Virus record (IMG/VR): IMGVR_UViG_3300026191_000001
Span: 1-64,000 of that record
Origin: an uncultured virus (IMG/VR IMGVR_UViG_3300026191_000001)
Taxonomy: Duplodnaviria > Heunggongvirae > Uroviricota > Caudoviricetes
DNA length: 64,000 bases
Direction: 5' to 3' (one strand)
A model generated the notes under the pieces. The model had not been told where the DNA came from and did not search any database. It was given only the letters and a program-made list of their open reading frames with translations. Positions 6,845 through 52,177 of the stretch are shown piece by piece (positions within the stretch are counted from its first letter, which is position 1; the number at the start of each line of letters is the position of its first letter). The position numbers were made by a program, and so were the translations under genes.

Positions 6845-6877
6845 ATCGTCAATTTCCAAATTGTAAAAGTTAGCTTA

Positions 6878-7066
6878 CTAAGGGAGTGGGTTCCGTTCGT
6901 GGTCTTTACACACAAGTTCCCTACATACAAACCCCCAAATTTTCGTTTTTTGAAGCTTCGCGGTTACTCCATCCTTTACCCAATCAACCGGAGCAGGTTG
7001 ACTTACCGTTGCATACTCATGACAGTATTTACAGTAGGGGACTTTAAAGCGTGGTTTCTCGTTCAT
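6878..7066 (-). CDS. Small Cys-containing hypothetical protein
   Basis: CKYC..C..C; variant start motif GGAAATTGATTTTATG. Confidence 0.55.
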   Translation of the reverse strand: MNEKPRFKVPYCKYCHEYATVSQPAPVDWVKDGVTAKLQKTKIWGFVCRELVCKDHERNPLP

Positions 7067-7113
7067 AAAATCAATTTCCAAATCAAAGGCTGGCTTTCAC
7101 CAGCCTATAAAAG

Positions 7114-11501: not shown

Positions 11502-12008
11502 TTATTTTGTTTTATTTAGAGTTAATACTCTTTTAGGTTTATCACCTTTATCATCTGATGTTGACTGGCGTGTGCCGCGTCCCACTTTCTGATTTATGAT
11601 AATCCCTTGCTTCTTGTTCTTACGTCGAGAGCGTAAGTACATAGAATGTAGTTCAACCATTCTCTTACGAGCATGGTCTGCTTCGGATTCGGTTACTCTA
11701 CCGTCAGGCTTTCCCCAGAGGTTAAAGCGCTGGGCACCAGTACGAATACGATTGAGGTATTTTATAGAATTAACGTGAAAGCCTATCGCATCGTATAGTT
11801 CTCTTGAGCTGACTTTCTTAGGAGAAATAACCGCACGAAGTTGCTCATAAATATCCCTACTTAACGGTTTGTTAGTTAAGATTCGGAATTTATTTTTACG
11901 ACAATAGGTGACCACCCAAAGCCAGCAATGGATAGGTTTTTCAAATTGTAATTTTTTAGAATTATATTTAAGGCTTACACCTTCAATTCCAAAAGTGGCG
12001 TTATCCAT
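11502..12008 (-). CDS. ProQ/FinO-domain RNA-binding protein
   Basis: KPLSRDIYEQL..SSRELYDAIGFHVNSIKYL..GAQRFNLWGKPDGRVTESEADHA follows the FinO-domain pattern (PLxxGI..YL..GxxRxDLxG..G.V...A); basic C-terminal tail. Confidence 0.8.
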   Translation of the reverse strand: MDNATFGIEGVSLKYNSKKLQFEKPIHCWLWVVTYCRKNKFRILTNKPLSRDIYEQLRAVISPKKVSSRELYDAIGFHVNSIKYLNRIRTGAQRFNLWGKPDGRVTESEADHARKRMVELHSMYLRSRRKNKKQGIIINQKVGRGTRQSTSDDKGDKPKRVLTLNKTK

Positions 12009-12033
12009 GCTCAACTCGTCAATTCATATTTTA

Positions 12034-32603: not shown

Positions 32604-32924
32604 GTGTCTAAGAAAATTGACGATAATATAGAACCACCCTGGGAGCTAGAGCGTCGTAGGCGAATAGCTCGAAAGTTTAAAAACATGCGCCAGAATTATC
32701 GATTGACGCAAGAAGAACTCGCTATTGCTGCGGACGTTCACAAGAATACTATTTCAAATGCCGAGCGATACGGCAAAATTTCCACAGAAGAATTCTACAA
32801 ATACCAACAAATTGCAAAACGCGCTCACATGAAGAAGGGACTCGGTGCGGTAGTGAGTAAAATTACCTTATCGGATATCCCATTCTCGGATTTTAAAAGA
32901 TTCTTAGCGACGTTTTGGGAGTAA
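32604..32924 (+). CDS. XRE HTH regulator, repressor candidate
   Basis: LTQEELAIAADVHKNTISNAERYG; divergent from the replication arm; GGAG RBS. Confidence 0.85.
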   Translation: MSKKIDDNIEPPWELERRRRIARKFKNMRQNYRLTQEELAIAADVHKNTISNAERYGKISTEEFYKYQQIAKRAHMKKGLGAVVSKITLSDIPFSDFKRFLATFWE

Positions 32925-40603: not shown

Positions 40604-41530
40604 TTACTCTTGTCTAAATAAATCAGAACCCCTTTTCACCGATCCCTTATGGCTGGCACTGTGCTCAAGACTTGGGGCCGGTTCAATCGGCTCAAGTGAC
40701 ATTACCTCGGCCAAGGCGTCGCTATTTTCTCGAAGCCAGTCCAAAAGAACCTCACGTTTTCGAGCATCCGCCTCGGCCTTTGATATCATTGGAGACCCTG
40801 CGATAGGTAAATCATCTACGTTAAGCTTTTCTAATACGCTATTCGCTCTCGCTATACTCATAACGTGTCCCAGTGAGTTAGCAATAGCCCCCTCACTATC
40901 TTCATCTAAGGGGCCGACCTTGAATTGCGGGGTAACACGGTATTCACCATCAGGTATTAACCAACGGAACTCATCCCAAATTTCGAGGAACTGCTTATCT
41001 AGCAGAGCTACACGCTCATCGGTAGTTAACGCTCTGGCAGGTTGAGGCCCCGCTTCCTGAGGGTATTGCTTTGGTTCAGGACGACGTTTGTGAAAACTAA
41101 TACCCTTACCGTTAATCACAAATATCTCACTACGGACCATTGAAAGAATATCTGAATAAGGTTCGGCAAAATCATATCCGCTAAAGGCTACAGGTATCGC
41201 GTCCTCGTGTGTTTGGTGGGCGTGGTAAATATAGTAACCTAGCGTAACGTCTGTCTCGTTGGTGACTGCGGTTAATATTGCATTCGCGGTCTCGGGGCAA
41301 ATTAGTGGGATAGTGGTAGAGAAACTATTCTGTGTTATTTCTTCCACGGCAACCAGAGTTTCATAGTTGTTATTCGAAGCGGGTGTTTTCATTTTGACTA
41401 ACTTATTGTGAACTTGTCTTTCTTCGTAATCCGTCAAGTTACTCAGCGCTTCGCCCAGTTTCTCTTTATTCCAAACAATCATTTTGGCCTGTACTACAGC
41501 GCCATTACCTAATTTCAAACCTTTTTTCAT
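40604..41530 (-). CDS. Hypothetical protein
   Basis: Start motif. Confidence 0.65.
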   Translation of the reverse strand: MKKGLKLGNGAVVQAKMIVWNKEKLGEALSNLTDYEERQVHNKLVKMKTPASNNNYETLVAVEEITQNSFSTTIPLICPETANAILTAVTNETDVTLGYYIYHAHQTHEDAIPVAFSGYDFAEPYSDILSMVRSEIFVINGKGISFHKRRPEPKQYPQEAGPQPARALTTDERVALLDKQFLEIWDEFRWLIPDGEYRVTPQFKVGPLDEDSEGAIANSLGHVMSIARANSVLEKLNVDDLPIAGSPMISKAEADARKREVLLDWLRENSDALAEVMSLEPIEPAPSLEHSASHKGSVKRGSDLFRQE

Positions 41531-41574
41531 CGTCAATTTCCTAAGTTAATTCCAAAAGGGGAGAACATTCCCCC

Positions 41575-48192: not shown

Positions 48193-48909
48193 TTACTTGT
48201 TAAGTTGCTTTTCAAGATCCTTTTGAATCTCAAGCGATAGAGCAAGCATTGCTTTGCTAACCTTGGCGCGGTGAGCCTTAGGTAAACCGGCCGCGTCTAG
48301 CGCTTCAAGTTGGTTATTGATTAGCGCTTGTGTGTGATCCTCAAGCTTAGAAACAAGAGCCATAACCGCGCTAGATACATTATCATCAGCAGCACGCTTT
48401 GCCGCGCCGCCTTCTTTATCCTTGCCCTTTACAGGTGCGCTTTTCGCGTCTTTGCTTGGCTTTTCTTCTTTCGCTTCTTTAGGCAAGTATTCACCTAAAA
48501 AGTTAAGCCATTCAACGCGCCCTTGAGGAGCACCGTTTTCGCCGTAAATATCCGCGTTTAATACCTTGTCACCGATTTGCGCGAATGTGCCGTTTAACTC
48601 GATCGTTTTGATTGAGTCGAAAAACTTGGTTAGATATTGACGGTTATCATTTACGAATTTCACGTAAGTTTTCCAGTAACCTTTTGCTTGGTTGTATAGG
48701 CGTGAGCTGTCGCGGTTGGCTTTTGTACGTTGGTTAGCTGGCACGCCGTACAAGTCACAACAAAGCGCGATGTTTGCACCTTGTTCCATGTTGTGTGCTA
48801 CGGCATAGCACGCAATAGCCATTTTAACGGCTGGCACACGTAGATCATTCTTATCAGCAGTAACAAGAGCAGAAGCAAAAACAGAAGCGTTAAAAGTGGT
48901 AGTAGTCAT
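48193..48909 (-). CDS. Hypothetical Ala/Lys-rich early protein
   Basis: Own promoter and start motif; first gene of the leftward arm. Confidence 0.7.
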   Translation of the reverse strand: MTTTTFNASVFASALVTADKNDLRVPAVKMAIACYAVAHNMEQGANIALCCDLYGVPANQRTKANRDSSRLYNQAKGYWKTYVKFVNDNRQYLTKFFDSIKTIELNGTFAQIGDKVLNADIYGENGAPQGRVEWLNFLGEYLPKEAKEEKPSKDAKSAPVKGKDKEGGAAKRAADDNVSSAVMALVSKLEDHTQALINNQLEALDAAGLPKAHRAKVSKAMLALSLEIQKDLEKQLNK

Positions 48910-49000
48910 AATCGTCAATCCTTAAAAGTTAATTTGTTGGTGGGGGAATGTTCCCCCCCCCTCGATGCGAGTAATTCGGTACTTGCGTCGAGTTGCATTC

Positions 49001-49030
49001 ACTATAAAAGGGGGGGTGGATTTTATGCAA
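49001..49030 (-). promoter_or_regulatory. Sigma70 promoter
   Basis: TTGCAT-18-TATAGT. Confidence 0.55.
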
Positions 49031-49109
49031 GAAAATGGGGTGATATAGTGGGGTGGCCCTCTCACTCCACCTGAAAAATTTTTGGAATTTTGGAAGGTTA
49101 TAGATACTA

Positions 49110-49207
49110 CCCTCGACCCTCAAACCTAGAACCGCGACCCTAGACCCAAGAACCTCGACCCGGGAAACTAGAAACTTTACCCTAGAACCGCGACCCGAGA
49201 ACCTAGG
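49110..49207. repeat. Array of 14 degenerate heptamers, consensus (A/C)CCTAGA
   Basis: ccctcga ccctcaa acctaga accgcga ccctaga cccaaga acctcga cccggga aactaga aacttta ccctaga accgcga cccgaga acctagg. Confidence 0.85.
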
Positions 49208-49209
49208 CC

Positions 49210-49413
49210 AAAAAGAAAACCCCGAGGGATTATGGCCACTCGGGGTTTGAGACGTTCAACGTAATCAGAGGTCGTTGTTCGTAGGATAAGCTTGAAACTA
49301 GGTATGCGGACGGGCACAAAGATTAGAACAGGCTTTATCGTCAATTTCCAAATTGTAAGGAGCGCTGGGCTCCCGCGGTTGAGGCATGTAAGCTGTTTGC
49401 TGTCAACGCCAAC
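49210..49413 (-). ncRNA. Candidate ~200-nt small RNA carrying the start-associated motif
   Basis: TTGACC-15-TATACT upstream; two 5' hairpins; UUACAAUUUGGAAAUUGACGAUA with no following AUG; terminator AAACCCCGAG..CTCGGGGTTTTCTTTTT. Confidence 0.5.
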
Positions 49414-49614
49414 TAAAGTATAAAAATCTCCTCGATTGGTCAAGTAAGTAAACCGGTGGCAAACCTTATATTATGTTATATAAGTGTTAAATCACGAGGG
49501 CTTTTGTTGTCGTATTTCTGAAATAAAAGACACAATTAAATTGTGTTTTTGTAGCTGGAAAAGTTCATCACTTGAAAGCACTTACACACATTGTCAGTGT
49601 GTGCAAAGAAACGT

Positions 49615-49651
49615 AAAAAAGGCGAAAAAATTTTTAAAAATTTTTTCGCCT
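49615..49651 (-). terminator. 32-bp perfect palindrome plus U-tract; probable terminator of the primase gene
   Basis: AGGCGAAAAAATTTTT|AAAAATTTTTTCGCCT followed by TTTTT on the minus strand. Confidence 0.6.
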
Positions 49652-49669: not shown

Positions 49670-52177
49670 TTATTGAGCGTTTAATTGAATGTTCAGTCCG
49701 TAATACTGAATAACTAATCGGTTTTTCGAATCGCGTCCTACGACTTGGAGAAACTGATAAAGCGTACTGAGCTCTTTGGTTCGACGATAGAATTCACCTT
49801 CATCCACGACAGCCCCGTTTTTAAATTCGCGAACAGATGCGGCGTAGAGTGTATATAAATCCCTACCGGCTATAGAGGGTAGCGACTTAAGCTCATCAAT
49901 CAACTCGTCTTTTGGTAGGGATTTAAGCACCGCTATCATAGAATCATCAGATAATTCAATATACCCAGAGGCTTCGAAGAAGTATCGAACGTTATTATTC
50001 ATCTGTCCGAGCTGGCGCACGAGCTCATGATGTGAGTCGGGTAAGGTGTAGTCGCGATTGTTGACCAGTCTCGGATAAGCGCGTAAGGCCCACGAGATAA
50101 TCTTGTCCTTTTCTTCGGCAACAATTTTGTTACCAATATCCAGCTCTCGATTTTCAGGGGGAATAGGTCTTTCCGTATTGAGTATCAACCAGCGTCGAGT
50201 AAATCCTTCCGAGAAATCTTTAGTTTTTGGCAGATGGTTTGAGGCGAACCAATGTGTAGCCATCGGTTGCAGGGTGTTATGTTGGTTGATGTTTCGCTTA
50301 AGCGTGACTTCTTGGCCATCAACAATATCTTTGAAGCGCTGGCTGTTGATAGGTTCGTTTTCAGAGAGTTCGCCACACAGGTTTAGTAGTTTATTCGATA
50401 GCGCGGCCAGCGCGTCATTATCTCCCCACTTGTTGGGCGGGAGTGAAACGCGCTTTTGAGGTGGTACCAGACCGCGAATGATATTGAGTATCTGACTCTT
50501 TCCTGATTTTGGCGTGCCGTGAAGTAGGATGGCCCGTTGAAAAAGTGTACCTGTGTTGAAGAACGTTGCGGCCATCGCTTCTTGCAAAGCCATTATGTTA
50601 TCGCTCTCGTCGTCGGTCTCCCAAATCTGGGTAATAAATTTATATAGCTTTTCTGGCGGGTAAACTTGGTCTGGGTTGAAGGTGAATGGCAACGTATAGG
50701 TTAACCCCATATCTGGGTCATGGGGTAATAGCTGAAGTTGGGAATTCACGAACCCGTTGTTGAAGTTCACACCCACAGAATTGACGCGTCGAAGGGGCAG
50801 GGCCAGTTTGTTTTTGATAGCCGTAATAATCGTATTGGTGTTACGCGTACCCTTGTCTGTGAAGTTCGACGGAAAGTAGGTGTTGATGATATGGCTTATC
50901 TCATGGTCTTCTACGGGTTCCCAATGCGTGCCTAGCCAACGGCATAATCTCTGGGCGTCGATGGCCGCATCATAGCGATGCTCGGTTTGGCTTGAGAGAA
51001 ATTGAGTAACAATAATAACGATAGCCGGAAGGTCTATCACGCCCCGCGCTTGCTTCCTTAGGTTTGCTATCTGACTATCCATCTTCGTCATGTTTAGCTT
51101 CATCCCAGACTGACGCGAGATATATCGCTTGAGCTGGTCTACTTCGAGTTTGGTTACTGTGAATGAGCGTGCGATTTCTTCCATGGCCGACTGGCATGCA
51201 CTCAACATTTGGGTTTCGTTGCCTATGGCGTCGGACATTTTATCGTAAACGTACTTCTGAAGGCCTTGATAGGTGTATTGCGCGTCCTTCGAAGTGAAGG
51301 GAATCGCGTATCTGTCCCTTAGATTAGAGCCAATATTGACGTCCCAGTGGGGCGGAAGGCGAAGGTTGTAGTACATACGCACTTGGTGGATAAGTGAGTA
51401 GAAGGTCTGGAAATAGGCGTCTTTTTGATGATTTGGGGGTATTTTGGCAAAATTTTGCGAAAAACTATCATAAAGCGCGTCAATTTCTTGCAAAACGGGC
51501 AAAAGGTGCGTGTTTTGGTCGCAATTCAGTAAAAAATCGTAGCAAAAATGCGTCAGGTAAGAGCGCATAGTTACGTCCAATTGTCCTAGAGTGTGTAATT
51601 TTGTCCTTGCTTCGTGCGGGTATGGCTCTTTTTGAAACTCCACATCCGGCATAATCTCCTGCAACACATCCATGATATGGTGTGGTTCAAATACCGGTAA
51701 GTTATCTACGACGTCTTTGGTAGGTACCTGAGTCGGTGAACTTAGTACTACGAACGTATCTTCCGCTAAGAACGAAAGTAAACTTCCCTCGAGGCCCGAG
51801 CCAAGAACCGTGAACGATTTTAGTGACTCACTACAAGGCGAAGGTGCCGGCGCTTTAAAAATCATGTAATGGCTATTTGATTCAGAGACCAGCCAAAAGC
51901 TTGAAGGAAGCTTATGAGAGAGTGAAAGCTTTAAATCGGATTGTTTATGATCGAGCCTTACCGCAACAAGACAATACTCACTCTCGTCTTTGAGCGCCTG
52001 ACCCAAGGCCACGCCGCAAAGCTTATCCGCATGTGTTGCTTGCCAATTCTTTTGATGTAACTCCTGGGTCGCATGAAGTATTTTATCACTGGGGATAGCA
52101 GGGAGCTTTGAAGTTTTAAACAGCGGAATGGTTGGGATACCTACAGCAAATAAGGCTTTCGATAATAAACTATACAT
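49670..52177 (-). CDS. D5/P4-type primase-SF3 helicase
   Basis: VNFNNG, HGTPKSGKS, LCGEL, FASNHLP, GFTRRW; N-terminal primase part divergent. Confidence 0.85.
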   Translation of the reverse strand: MYSLLSKALFAVGIPTIPLFKTSKLPAIPSDKILHATQELHQKNWQATHADKLCGVALGQALKDESEYCLVAVRLDHKQSDLKLSLSHKLPSSFWLVSESNSHYMIFKAPAPSPCSESLKSFTVLGSGLEGSLLSFLAEDTFVVLSSPTQVPTKDVVDNLPVFEPHHIMDVLQEIMPDVEFQKEPYPHEARTKLHTLGQLDVTMRSYLTHFCYDFLLNCDQNTHLLPVLQEIDALYDSFSQNFAKIPPNHQKDAYFQTFYSLIHQVRMYYNLRLPPHWDVNIGSNLRDRYAIPFTSKDAQYTYQGLQKYVYDKMSDAIGNETQMLSACQSAMEEIARSFTVTKLEVDQLKRYISRQSGMKLNMTKMDSQIANLRKQARGVIDLPAIVIIVTQFLSSQTEHRYDAAIDAQRLCRWLGTHWEPVEDHEISHIINTYFPSNFTDKGTRNTNTIITAIKNKLALPLRRVNSVGVNFNNGFVNSQLQLLPHDPDMGLTYTLPFTFNPDQVYPPEKLYKFITQIWETDDESDNIMALQEAMAATFFNTGTLFQRAILLHGTPKSGKSQILNIIRGLVPPQKRVSLPPNKWGDNDALAALSNKLLNLCGELSENEPINSQRFKDIVDGQEVTLKRNINQHNTLQPMATHWFASNHLPKTKDFSEGFTRRWLILNTERPIPPENRELDIGNKIVAEEKDKIISWALRAYPRLVNNRDYTLPDSHHELVRQLGQMNNNVRYFFEASGYIELSDDSMIAVLKSLPKDELIDELKSLPSIAGRDLYTLYAASVREFKNGAVVDEGEFYRRTKELSTLYQFLQVVGRDSKNRLVIQYYGLNIQLNAQ

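What the first reader, a model, noticed from the sequence alone, without database searches (positions are those of the whole stretch)
49205..49445. Orphan, extended copy of the start motif inside a candidate ~200-nt sRNA
Seen: 49337-49358 carries TTACAATTTGGAAATTGACGAT (minus strand), identical over 22 nt to the leaders of xis (6845) and the DUF3560 gene (38151). Here it is followed by AAAG rather than a start codon, in a non-coding gap. On the minus strand it has a promoter-like TTGACC-15-TATACT (short spacer), two 5' hairpins, and a strong terminator with a U-tract. One hairpin has a G-U pair that would be an A-C mismatch on the plus strand. Inference: a minus-strand RNA would be a decoy or guide for the motif-recognising factor. 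A plus-strand RNA would be an antisense able to occlude about 45 start regions at once, that is RNA-based immunity in the spirit of P4 CI or P1 C4 RNAs. Sequence features favour the minus strand.
Basis: partly seen in the sequence, partly recalled or inferred. Interest (0 to 1): 0.8.

Follow-up and report, generated by a model that had tools for sequence, protein, structure and literature searches.

The report
Phage decoy RNA carrying gene-start box
A marine temperate phage keeps a roughly 200-base non-coding RNA gene whose conserved core is a copy, without a start codon, of the box that precedes most of its genes; it is probably a decoy or target for the phage's own small antisense RNA that matches that box.

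Summary
The 22-mer at 49358-49337 (-) is an exact third copy of two gene leaders, has no start codon, and lies between a TTGACC-15-TATACT promoter and a strong terminator. It is a real non-coding transcription unit on the minus strand ("sRNA-49", about 49411-49210). It is syntenic in all relatives examined. Frame-breaking indels exclude coding. Terminator changes are compensatory or G-U only on this strand. One metatranscriptome holds a separate 166-nt contig lying exactly inside it.

Across two diverged lineages only the promoter, the motif core and the terminator survive.

The "motif-recognising factor" is most likely an RNA. Outside the window (genome 69643-69756, + strand) lies a roughly 78-nt sRNA ("RNA-69") with promoter, 5' hairpin, single-stranded anti-motif and terminator. 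It is conserved in 6 of 6 genomes. A positional analogue in Pseudoalteromonas phage KB12-38 carries an anti-motif that tracks that phage's own, different start box.

Best reading (about 0.5): sRNA-49 is a target mimic or sponge for RNA-69, which occludes about 35 gene starts, perhaps aided by a phage ProQ/FinO-like protein. All of this is untested experimentally.

The scan reached the same reading earlier on another genome (e1-6061508).

The parts
49438..49443 (-). -35 box TTGACC of sRNA-49
   Evidence: Invariant in the 6 sequences of alignment A1 and present in type B.
49417..49422 (-). -10 box TATACT (15-nt spacer; TACTTT 49420-49415 with a 17-nt spacer is an alternative)
   Evidence: TTTTATACTTTAGT is invariant in A1. 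The same TATACTTTAGT occurs in type B.
49210..49411 (-). Predicted sRNA-49 transcript, about 200 nt, non-coding
   Evidence: Bounded by the promoter and terminator. 1-nt indels in L010 and L008 break any reading frame. A 166-nt contig in metatranscriptome X15 covers 49241-49407 and is not joined to its flanks. An nhmmer profile finds a single full-length copy in the genome.
49383..49410 (-). 5' hairpin 1 (variable region)
   Evidence: Seen in the MFE fold. The region carries large indels in L010 and L008.
49358..49374 (-). Hairpin 2, GGGAGC-loop-GCUCCU, with a closing G-U pair
   Evidence: Seen in the fold. L039 and L033 have a different hairpin (GAGUGG...CCACUC) that ends at the same place, just before the motif.
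49337..49358 (-). Orphan start-motif copy (core GGAAAUUGACGAU), followed by AAAG and no start codon
   Evidence: It is 91-95% identical in type A relatives. In type B it is the best-kept inner segment (16/22), while the rest of the RNA body is 32-40% identical. It is complementary to RNA-69 over 18-19 nt.
49249..49336 (-). Middle/3' body of the sRNA; GAUAAAGC may pair with GCUUAUC
   Evidence: 90-95% identical among type A relatives but only 40% to type B. No convincing complementary target was found in the phage genome.
49210..49248 (-). Intrinsic terminator (10-bp stem extended by A-U pairs) and U-tract
   Evidence: Inverted repeat I7. Alignment pair 210-227 is GC in 8 sequences and CG in 2. 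Pair 209-228 is CG in 7, UG in 2 and UA in 1. The UG variants would be A-C mismatches on the plus strand.
49109..49203 (.). Tandem array with 7-nt period (GGKTCNN, about 13 units) directly after the terminator; a possible origin or regulator-binding array
   Evidence: TRF periods of 7, 14 and 21 and repeat family D1. A comparable array is present in type B.
49620..49651 (-). Terminator of the upstream primase/helicase gene, which separates it from sRNA-49
   Evidence: Scanner hit with 14 pairs and a T-tract. The primase contig in X15 ends at 49640.
49001..49030 (-). Promoter-like TTGCAT-17-TATAGT of the next operon (241-aa gene)
   Evidence: Coordinates. The region is 73-94% conserved. The 5' end of the X15 contig for that gene lies near 48987.
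11502..12011 (-). ProQ/FinO-family protein gene, candidate chaperone of the two sRNAs
   Evidence: Pfam PF04352, E = 7.4e-13, 48.9 bits against a cut-off of 27. Its only match among 50,697 phage records is KB12-38. It is present in 4 of 5 relatives; the missing one is an 81%-complete fragment.

Best explanation
sRNA-49 is an independently transcribed, non-coding RNA of about 200 nt on the minus strand. Its functional core is a start-codon-less copy of the phage's 13-nt gene-start box GGAAAUUGACGAU, extended here to 19-22 nt.

The box is the binding site of a second phage sRNA, RNA-69. RNA-69 lies on the + strand at genome 69678-69756, outside the window. It is about 78 nt long and consists of a 5' hairpin, a single-stranded anti-box UUAUCGUCAAUUUCCAAAU and a terminator.

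RNA-69 can cover the Shine-Dalgarno GGA, the spacer and the AU(G) of about 35 phage genes, and so most likely represses their translation. sRNA-49 pairs with the same seed and therefore acts as a target mimic (sponge or anti-sRNA). In that role it would set or relieve the threshold of this phage-wide repression. A phage ProQ/FinO-like protein may assist both RNAs.

What is shown: the transcription unit and its strand, its non-coding nature, the existence and conservation of the complementary sRNA gene, and the co-variation of anti-box and box. What is inferred: that the two RNAs meet in the cell, that RNA-69 represses, that sRNA-49 titrates it, and that ProQ is involved.
For: The unit and its strand:
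- The promoter, motif and terminator are conserved in 6 of 6 aligned type A sequences and in the diverged type B.
- 1-nt indels exclude coding.
- Terminator pairs change by compensation or to G-U on this strand only.
- The X15 metatranscriptome has a 166-nt contig at 49241-49407, with no cover in bins 49110-49211 and 49416-49517. The neighbouring gene contigs stop at 49640 and near 48987.

The motif as functional core:
- Against type B the motif keeps 16/22 positions, while the rest of the RNA body keeps 32-40%.

The partner RNA:
- The scanner finds TTGACA-17-TAGTAT (10/12) and a terminator on the + strand at genome 69643-69748.
- The fold has z = -3.9 and leaves the anti-box unpaired.
- Across 6 genomes, 21 of 21 predicted pairs are kept: one CG->UA double change, three wobble-compatible changes and none broken.

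Co-variation of box and anti-box:
- Type A RNA-69 has A opposite the box U, and four type A genomes have 0 TCGAC among 110 pattern matches.
- Type B RNA-69 has G there, and type B genomes use both variants (18 C among 43).
- Pseudoalteromonas phage KB12-38 (terminase 50.6% identical) uses a shorter box, GGAUUGAC. In the syntenic tail-gene gap it has a promoter, the anti-box UUGUCAAUCCAAAU and a terminator.
- Achromobacter phage JWF has neither an extended box nor that gap. Acinetobacter phage EAb13 lacks the gap.

Pairing:
- In 6 of 6 genomes the MFE dimer of the two sRNAs uses box:anti-box pairing (12-18 bp in five; in A4, 21 intermolecular pairs spanning a wider region), with a net gain of -17.7 to -22.1 kcal/mol. 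Sixty shuffled controls give -5.4 +/- 2.7, with a minimum of -12.6.
- In a scan of 32,546 genome windows (median -7.1, 1st percentile -19.1), sRNA-49 ranks 5th at -25.9, and the top of the list is dominated by motif-bearing gene starts.

ProQ/FinO-like gene:
-. KB12-38 also encodes one.
Against: - No strand-specific or end-mapped RNA data exist. Contigs show neither strand nor level, and the sRNA-49 contig has lower depth (7.6) than the neighbouring gene contigs (141 and 52).
- Expression of RNA-69 was not examined.
- sRNA-49 is not the strongest predicted partner of RNA-69. Four sites score better. In type B it offers only 12 bp, no more than ordinary gene starts.
- KB12-38 has the anti-box RNA but no detectable sRNA-49 homologue, so the decoy is not an obligatory part of the system.
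- Both promoters look constitutive, and no regulatory input is identified.
- The high identity of the 3' body among type A phages (90-95%) is matched by the adjacent coding gene (93-100%). It may therefore partly reflect a shared recent module rather than special constraint.
- Only two to three lineages underlie the co-variation.
Confidence: 0.5

Rival explanations
1. sRNA-49 is a regulated target of RNA-69 rather than a sponge. It would be a leader, attenuator or origin-linked transcript. RNA-69 pairing at the box would remodel the downstream helix (GAUAAAGC/GCUUAUC). That would change termination, processing, or priming or activation of the adjacent 7-nt repeat array next to the P4-type primase/helicase gene.
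For: It sits directly between a primase/helicase gene (DUF5906; annotated P4-family in the JWF homologue) and a conserved tandem array, and is co-oriented with the next operon. The fold pairs the 3' end of the motif with GCUUAUC downstream. The KB12-38 early leader also carries an orphan box upstream of a real one.
Against: A strong terminator and a separate downstream promoter (TTGCAT-17-TATAGT) make the unit self-contained. The X15 contigs are not joined across 49110-49211. The body between box and terminator is not conserved between types A and B (40%), so no alternative terminator/antiterminator structure is conserved. No origin function has been shown for the repeats.
Confidence: 0.17
2. 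sRNA-49 is a decoy for a protein or for the 30S subunit that recognises the start box (a CsrA-like, ProQ-like or phage translational regulator), not for an RNA.
For: The extended box can form CAAUU-UGGA-AAUUG, which presents GGA in a loop. The phage encodes a ProQ/FinO-like RNA-binding protein.
Against: sRNA-49 holds only 2 GGA triplets (sequence), whereas CsrB-type sponges carry many. The small hairpin is not conserved in type B. A perfectly matching antisense RNA exists and co-varies with the box. ProQ/FinO proteins recognise terminator structure rather than sequence (review PMC9977716, passages seen).
Confidence: 0.1
3. The locus is the decayed start of a lost gene, or a tiny ORF with a non-ATG start.
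For: An 88-aa ORF (49177-49443) and a TTG/ATA-initiated frame run through the region. The box is otherwise a gene-start signal.
Against: 1-nt indels in L010 and L008 shift the frame. Neither type A (GAUAAAG) nor type B (GACGAACG) has a start codon. The frame would run through the terminator. The dedicated promoter and terminator are conserved in both lineages.
Confidence: 0.04
4. A plus-strand antisense RNA is made at this locus.
For: The plus-strand fold is slightly more stable in absolute terms (-62.2 kcal/mol, z = -1.4).
Against: No plus-strand promoter or terminator was found. On the plus strand the hairpin at 49217-49248 precedes the motif. The terminator wobble variants would be A-C mismatches on that strand. 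The -35 and -10 conservation is oriented for the minus strand.
Confidence: 0.03

Closest known systems
Prophage-encoded anti-sRNA AgvB (and AsxR) of enterohaemorrhagic E. coli (Tree et al. 2014, PMC4104026; abstract and outline seen)
   Same: A phage-borne small RNA that antagonises a base-pairing sRNA by mimicking its mRNA target sequence.
   Different: AgvB targets a host core-genome sRNA (GcvB) and depends on Hfq. Here both the sRNA and its mimic are phage-encoded, the mimicked site is a box shared by about 35 phage gene starts, and there is no sequence similarity to AgvB (no Rfam match).
FinP antisense RNA / FinO / traJ of F-like plasmids (review PMC9977716, passages seen)
   Same: An antisense RNA pairs with a ribosome-binding site with the help of a FinO-family protein encoded by the same mobile element. 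The ligands are recognised through terminator hairpins. An A-rich flank 5' of the terminator is present in both RNAs here (sequences).
   Different: FinP is cis-encoded against one mRNA. RNA-69 is trans-encoded against a standardised box at many genes, and no FinP decoy RNA is described in the passages I read. Binding by the ProQ-like protein is untested here.
c4 RNA of phages P1/P7 (review PMC12197685, passages seen) and CI RNA of satellite phage P4 (recalled from memory, not seen in any call)
   Same: Phage immunity-type antisense RNAs that pair with sites around a ribosome-binding site or in a leader. Single-base differences define heteroimmunity, which may parallel the A/G difference between type A and type B RNA-69.
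   Different: c4 and CI are processed from the leader of the operon they control and act on one or two sites. sRNA-49 carries the sense copy, so it is a mimic, not the antisense.
CsrB/RsmZ-type protein sponges
   Same: A non-coding RNA that carries SD-like GGA sites without an ORF and acts by titration.
   Different: Those carry many GGA hairpins and bind the CsrA protein. sRNA-49 has one box (2 GGA triplets) and a matching RNA partner.

Membership tests
sRNA sponge / anti-sRNA (target mimic) | Independent, non-coding transcript | tested here: met
   The promoter and terminator are conserved. Indels break any frame. A separate 166-nt metatranscriptome contig covers the unit. Strand and ends have not been mapped experimentally.
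sRNA sponge / anti-sRNA (target mimic) | Carries a sequence that mimics the mRNA target site of a cognate sRNA | tested here: met
   Complementarity to the RNA-69 seed is 18-19 nt (type A) or 12 nt (type B). The MFE dimer uses this pairing in 6 of 6 genomes.
sRNA sponge / anti-sRNA (target mimic) | The cognate sRNA exists and regulates the mimicked targets | tested here: inconclusive
   The RNA-69 gene is predicted from promoter, terminator, covariation and box/anti-box co-variation. Its expression and its regulatory effect have not been tested.
sRNA sponge / anti-sRNA (target mimic) | Titration relieves regulation in vivo | not testable with these tools
   This needs reporter assays or genetics.
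P1 c4 / P4 CI type immunity antisense RNA | The RNA is antisense to the regulated ribosome-binding or leader site | tested here: not met
   sRNA-49 carries the sense copy of the box. RNA-69, not sRNA-49, fits this feature.
CsrB/RsmZ protein sponge | Multiple GGA-loop hairpins | tested here: not met
   There are 2 GGA triplets in about 200 nt (sequence). The one GGA-loop hairpin in the fold is not conserved in type B.
Any Rfam family / tRNA / tmRNA | Covariance-model or ARAGORN match | tested here: not met
   0 matches at gathering score over the window. Only sub-threshold matches appear at E <= 5 (best: rnk_leader, 34 bits against 50, on the type B terminator region). ARAGORN finds 0 genes.
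ProQ/FinO-dependent sRNA | Terminator hairpin with an A-rich 5' flank able to pair with the U-tail; bound by a FinO-domain protein | tested here: inconclusive
   The sequence feature is present in both RNAs (CAAACCCCGAG...CUCGGGGUUUU; AACGCC...GGUGUU). A FinO-domain gene is present and co-distributed with the system. Binding is untested.

The most novel reading that the evidence does not exclude
The phage runs an RNA-only master switch. About 35 early and late gene starts have been standardised to one 13-nt box so that a single antisense sRNA (RNA-69), chaperoned by a phage ProQ/FinO protein, can silence the whole genome. That silencing would serve prophage quiescence and immunity to related phages. 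sRNA-49 is the trans-acting antagonist that flips the system on. A single A/G difference in the antisense RNA would define asymmetric heteroimmunity classes: type B RNA-69 pairs with both box variants, whereas type A pairs with only one (cross-dimer energies -21.3 against -11.7 kcal/mol).
Probability: 0.28. Interest if true: 0.9.

Novelty: new variant of a known kind. Interest (0 to 1): 0.72.

Why it matters
If correct, this is a compact, testable example of genome-wide post-transcriptional control in a phage. It would have three parts: one antisense RNA addressing dozens of genes through a shared start box, a dedicated decoy RNA, and possibly a dedicated chaperone.

It would explain why a 13-nt box is held invariant at so many gene starts. 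It would also add an RNA-sponge layer to lysis-lysogeny or immunity control.

The elements are short, and a cultured relative exists (Pseudoalteromonas phage KB12-38). Reporter and compensatory-mutation tests are therefore straightforward.

Tried and rejected
**Database and homologue searches**
- blastn of the gap against 50,697 phage records gave no match.
- Rfam at gathering score and at E <= 5 gave nothing meaningful, and ARAGORN found nothing.
- A promoter-pattern scan of viral contigs returned 16 loci. Nine came from already known relatives, and seven (L029, L030, L032, L036, L040, L042, L043) were unrelated chance matches.
- Primase-based scans gave no new sRNA-49 type. The genome collection gave 1 locus, a 3-kb MAG contig. 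The viral collection gave 10 loci. The metagenome collection gave 10 loci, 9 of them with the gap. The 62% and 49% relatives (L056, L070) are truncated before the gap.
- nhmmer profiles of sRNA-49 and RNA-69 found no homologue in KB12-38, or in the first 50 kb of JWF, which was all of JWF that was searched. The KB12-38 anti-box RNA was found by position and architecture only.

**Ideas considered and dropped**
- I looked for antisense targets of the conserved 3' body in the phage genome. Only 11-12-nt matches at chance level turned up.
- I considered a second pairing segment: the sRNA-49 5' end GGCGUUGA against RNA-69 UCAACGCC. It has a mismatch in the A4 variant and is absent in type B, so I dropped it.
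- I had read the type A 3' body as exceptionally constrained. I weakened this after finding that the neighbouring coding gene is equally similar.
- duplexfold on the full-length RNAs gave unrealistically extended duplexes. I replaced it with cofold and with a seed-window scan.

**Read data**
- Runs X18 and X19 gave no useful cover of the locus.
- Parts without contig cover are not evidence of absence.

Full report
**Context.** The window is the first 64 kb of an 81,404-bp IMG/VR virus record with direct terminal repeats.
- It encodes an integrase and an excisionase-sized protein. A long minus-strand block carries replication and DNA-metabolism genes, and a plus-strand block carries structural and lysis genes.
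- IMG/VR classes three relatives as proviruses, so the phage is temperate.
- There are two host hints. A 3-kb contig binned in an Alteromonadaceae MAG is 95% identical over the primase N-terminus. The nearest cultured phage infects Pseudoalteromonas (terminase 50.6% identical).

**Observation.**
- The 22-mer TTACAATTTGGAAATTGACGAT occurs exactly at 6845, 38151 and 49337, all on the minus strand. With up to 3 mismatches there are 11 matches, against 0 expected in 100 shuffles.
- At 49337-49358 it is followed by AAAG.
- Upstream lie TTGACC (49443-49438) and TATACT (49422-49417). Downstream lie a 10-bp GC-rich stem (49248-49239 / 49226-49217) and a U-tract to 49210.
- The generic scanner missed both signals, because the spacer (15 nt) and the loop (12 nt) fall outside its limits.
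- Two 5' hairpins, one closed by a G-U pair, appear in the fold. The overall fold is unremarkable (z = -1.2).

**It is a minus-strand, non-coding transcription unit.** The gap lies between a primase/helicase gene (49670-52177) and a 241-aa gene (48193-48918), both on the minus strand.
- Relatives with 99, 96, 91, 83 and 72% identical primases all carry the element in the same place.
- In the six-sequence alignment the -35 box, TTTTATACTTTAGT, the motif and the terminator are invariant. L010 and L008 each have a 1-nt indel inside the body, and the 5' hairpin region has large indels. No reading frame is therefore conserved.
- In the ten-sequence alignment, terminator pair 210-227 is GC in 8 sequences and CG in 2. 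Pair 209-228 is CG in 7, UG in 2 and UA in 1. The UG variants would be A-C mismatches on the plus strand.
- In L039 and L033 a different hairpin (GAGUGG...CCACUC) replaces GGGAGC...GCUCC but ends at the same position, just before the motif.
- RNA evidence is modest. In metatranscriptome X15 a 166-nt contig (depth 7.6) covers 49241-49407 with no mismatch and one 1-nt gap known from a close relative.
- In the same run, bins 49110-49211 and 49416-49517 have no cover. The primase contig ends at 49640, inside its own terminator. The contig of the 241-aa gene starts near 48987, just downstream of a TTGCAT-17-TATAGT promoter-like site.
- Contigs show neither strand nor level, and DNA carry-over cannot be excluded.

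**What is conserved**.
- Against type A relatives L010 and L008, identity runs as follows:

| Segment | Identity |
|---|---|
| Gap upstream of the -35 box | 57% and 54% |
| sRNA 5' part | 60% and 66% |
| Motif | 91% and 95% |
| sRNA 3' body | 90% and 92% |
| Following 7-nt repeat array | 75% and 57% |

- The adjacent 241-aa gene is also 94% and 93% identical, so part of this reflects a shared module.
- Against type B (L013), the motif keeps 16/22 positions while the rest of the body keeps 32-40%. The promoter and terminator architecture is retained.
- The only deeply conserved inner element is therefore the box.

**The box at gene starts.**
- Of 42 exact TTGACGAT in the window, 34 abut a start codon, as GGA(A/G)ATTGACG-ATG or with 1-3 extra bases.
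- Information content is high only over the 13 nt GGAAATTGACGAT.
- This reads as SD-like GGA, a fixed 8-nt spacer and the AUG. The fixed spacer is not explained by ribosome binding alone.

**The partner RNA.**
- A blastn-short search of sRNA-49 against the whole genome found a 19-nt identity on the minus strand at 69704-69722, in a gap of the plus-strand tail-gene block outside the window.
- Read on the plus strand, this gap has five elements in order:
  - TTGACA-17-TAGTAT (69643-69671; scanner score 10/12);
  - a 5' hairpin;
  - the single-stranded anti-box UUAUCGUCAAUUUCCAAAU;
  - a terminator (69724-69748);
  - a U-tract.
- The fold has z = -3.9.
- The element is present in 6 of 6 genomes. 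All 21 predicted pairs are kept, with one CG->UA double change and three wobble-compatible changes. The G-U pairs are specific to the plus strand.
- I call it RNA-69.

**Co-variation of box and anti-box.**
- Type A RNA-69 has A opposite the box U, and type B has G.
- For the pattern GGAAATYGACRA, four type A genomes give 0 C-variants among 110 matches (28 + 29 + 29 + 24). The two type B genomes give 18 C among 43. A G can pair with U or C, whereas an A pairs only with U.
- Phage KB12-38 uses a shorter box, (A)TTTGGATTGAC(A/T), at many starts.
- In the syntenic gap after the gene that follows its tape-measure gene, KB12-38 has TTGACT-17-TACTAT, the anti-box UUGUCAAUCCAAAU and a 13-bp terminator. 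The two-base difference in the box is mirrored in the anti-box.
- Achromobacter phage JWF shares the primase, terminase and tail synteny. It has ordinary variable SD regions and no gap at that position. Acinetobacter phage EAb13 also lacks the gap.
- The ProQ/FinO-like protein (11502-12011; Pfam E = 7.4e-13) has a single match among 50,697 phage records, namely KB12-38. It is found in 4 of 5 relatives, the exception being an 81%-complete fragment.

**Pairing energetics.**
- The RNA-69 seed was scanned against 32,546 40-nt genome windows. The median is -7.1 and the 1st percentile -19.1 kcal/mol.
- Motif-bearing gene starts dominate the top of the ranked list, mostly at -20 to -28. sRNA-49 gives -25.9 and ranks 5th after RNA-69's own complement.
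- With intramolecular structure allowed, the MFE dimer of sRNA-49 and RNA-69 uses box:anti-box pairing in 6 of 6 genomes. It is 12-18 bp in five; in A4 the dimer has 21 intermolecular pairs spanning a wider region. The net gain is -17.7 to -22.1 kcal/mol. Sixty mononucleotide shuffles give -5.4 +/- 2.7, with a minimum of -12.6.
- Cross-type dimers are asymmetric, at -21.3 and -11.7 kcal/mol.

**Mechanism.**
- Shown: two conserved sRNA genes with complementary cores, and a box shared by about 35 gene starts that co-varies with the antisense RNA.
- Inferred: RNA-69 occludes the SD and start codon and represses translation. sRNA-49 lacks a start codon in both lineages and competes for RNA-69 as a target mimic. 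A ProQ/FinO-like protein may stabilise or match the RNAs.
- Both terminators have A-rich 5' flanks that extend the stem into the U-tail. The review PMC9977716 (passages) associates this trait with ProQ ligands.
- The main rival is that sRNA-49 is itself a regulated target, acting as a leader or as an origin-linked transcript beside the repeat array.
- A protein decoy, a relic gene start and a plus-strand RNA at this locus are less likely, for the reasons given under the rivals.

**Points against the sponge reading.**
- sRNA-49 is not the best predicted partner of RNA-69.
- Type B offers only 12 bp.
- KB12-38 lacks a detectable homologue.
- The contig depth of sRNA-49 is lower than that of its neighbours.
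- No regulatory input is known.

**Comparison and novelty.**
- The closest described principle is the prophage anti-sRNA AgvB, which mimics the mRNA target of GcvB (PMC4104026, abstract).
- RNA-69 resembles FinP/FinO acting on the traJ ribosome-binding site (PMC9977716, passages). It also resembles the c4 RNA of P1/P7 (PMC12197685, passages). P4 CI RNA is recalled from memory only.
- I found no description of a phage-wide start box matched by one antisense RNA plus a decoy in four full-text searches or in the phage-sRNA review passages. These searches cover only the held library, and no supplements were consulted.
- The scan itself reached the same reading on another genome (note e1-6061508, seen, after I had found RNA-69).
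- I class it as a new variant of a known kind.

Noticed in passing
outside the window: own genome 69643-69756 (+), locus L050 194-307: Candidate antisense sRNA of about 78 nt (RNA-69) whose single-stranded seed is complementary to the gene-start box. It has promoter TTGACA-17-TAGTAT and a terminator, is conserved in 6 of 6 genomes, and shows one compensatory pair.
   Followed up: yes
window 49109-49203: Tandem array of about 13 heptamers (GGKTCNN) directly after the sRNA terminator and downstream of the P4-type primase/helicase gene. A comparable array occurs in type B. It may be an origin or a regulator-binding array.
   Followed up: partly
window 11502-12011 (-): Phage-encoded ProQ/FinO-family protein. 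Its only match among 50,697 phage records is Pseudoalteromonas phage KB12-38, the one cultured phage that also has a start box and an anti-box RNA.
   Followed up: partly
window 7065-7104 (-), gap upstream of the xis-like gene: A hairpin followed by TTGATTTGGAAATTGA. This degenerate box lacks CGAT but has 16 nt complementary to RNA-69, including its 5' extension. Predicted duplex energy is -23.5 kcal/mol.
   Followed up: no
window 3397, 4830, 32617, 52762 (+) and 29287 (-): A second class of TTGACGAT copies, followed by ATAA or ATAC. In four of the five (not 32617) a separate SD-like GGAG/GAGG and a start codon follow 15-25 nt downstream; one of these is the terminase gene. RNA-69's own complement has the same TTGACGATAATTAGGAG arrangement.
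   Followed up: no
window 48961, 48180, 47256, 44050 (-) and 15 minus-strand AATTAACT sites: Recurrent intergenic cassette: a GGGGGGAACATTCCCCCC hairpin, then AATTAACTT, then the start box. KB12-38 has the same architecture with different sequence (ACGGGGTAACGTTACCCCGT, AATTAAACTAAAACT, GGATTGAC).
   Followed up: partly
locus L071 (KB12-38) 41440-41570: The leader of an early gene next to a divergent small gene carries two box copies in tandem. The first has no start codon, making it an orphan box inside an mRNA leader.
   Followed up: no
own genome 69760-69800 (+), locus L050: Invariant palindrome ATTGAAAAATATTCAAT and a TATACT -10-like box between the RNA-69 terminator and the next tail gene. 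This is a possible protein-regulated internal late promoter.
   Followed up: no
window 32604-32924 (+): HTH (Pfam HTH_3) gene on the opposite strand inside the early block, divergent from the ligase-gene operon. This is a likely repressor or immunity region. Its relation to the two sRNA promoters was not examined.
   Followed up: no
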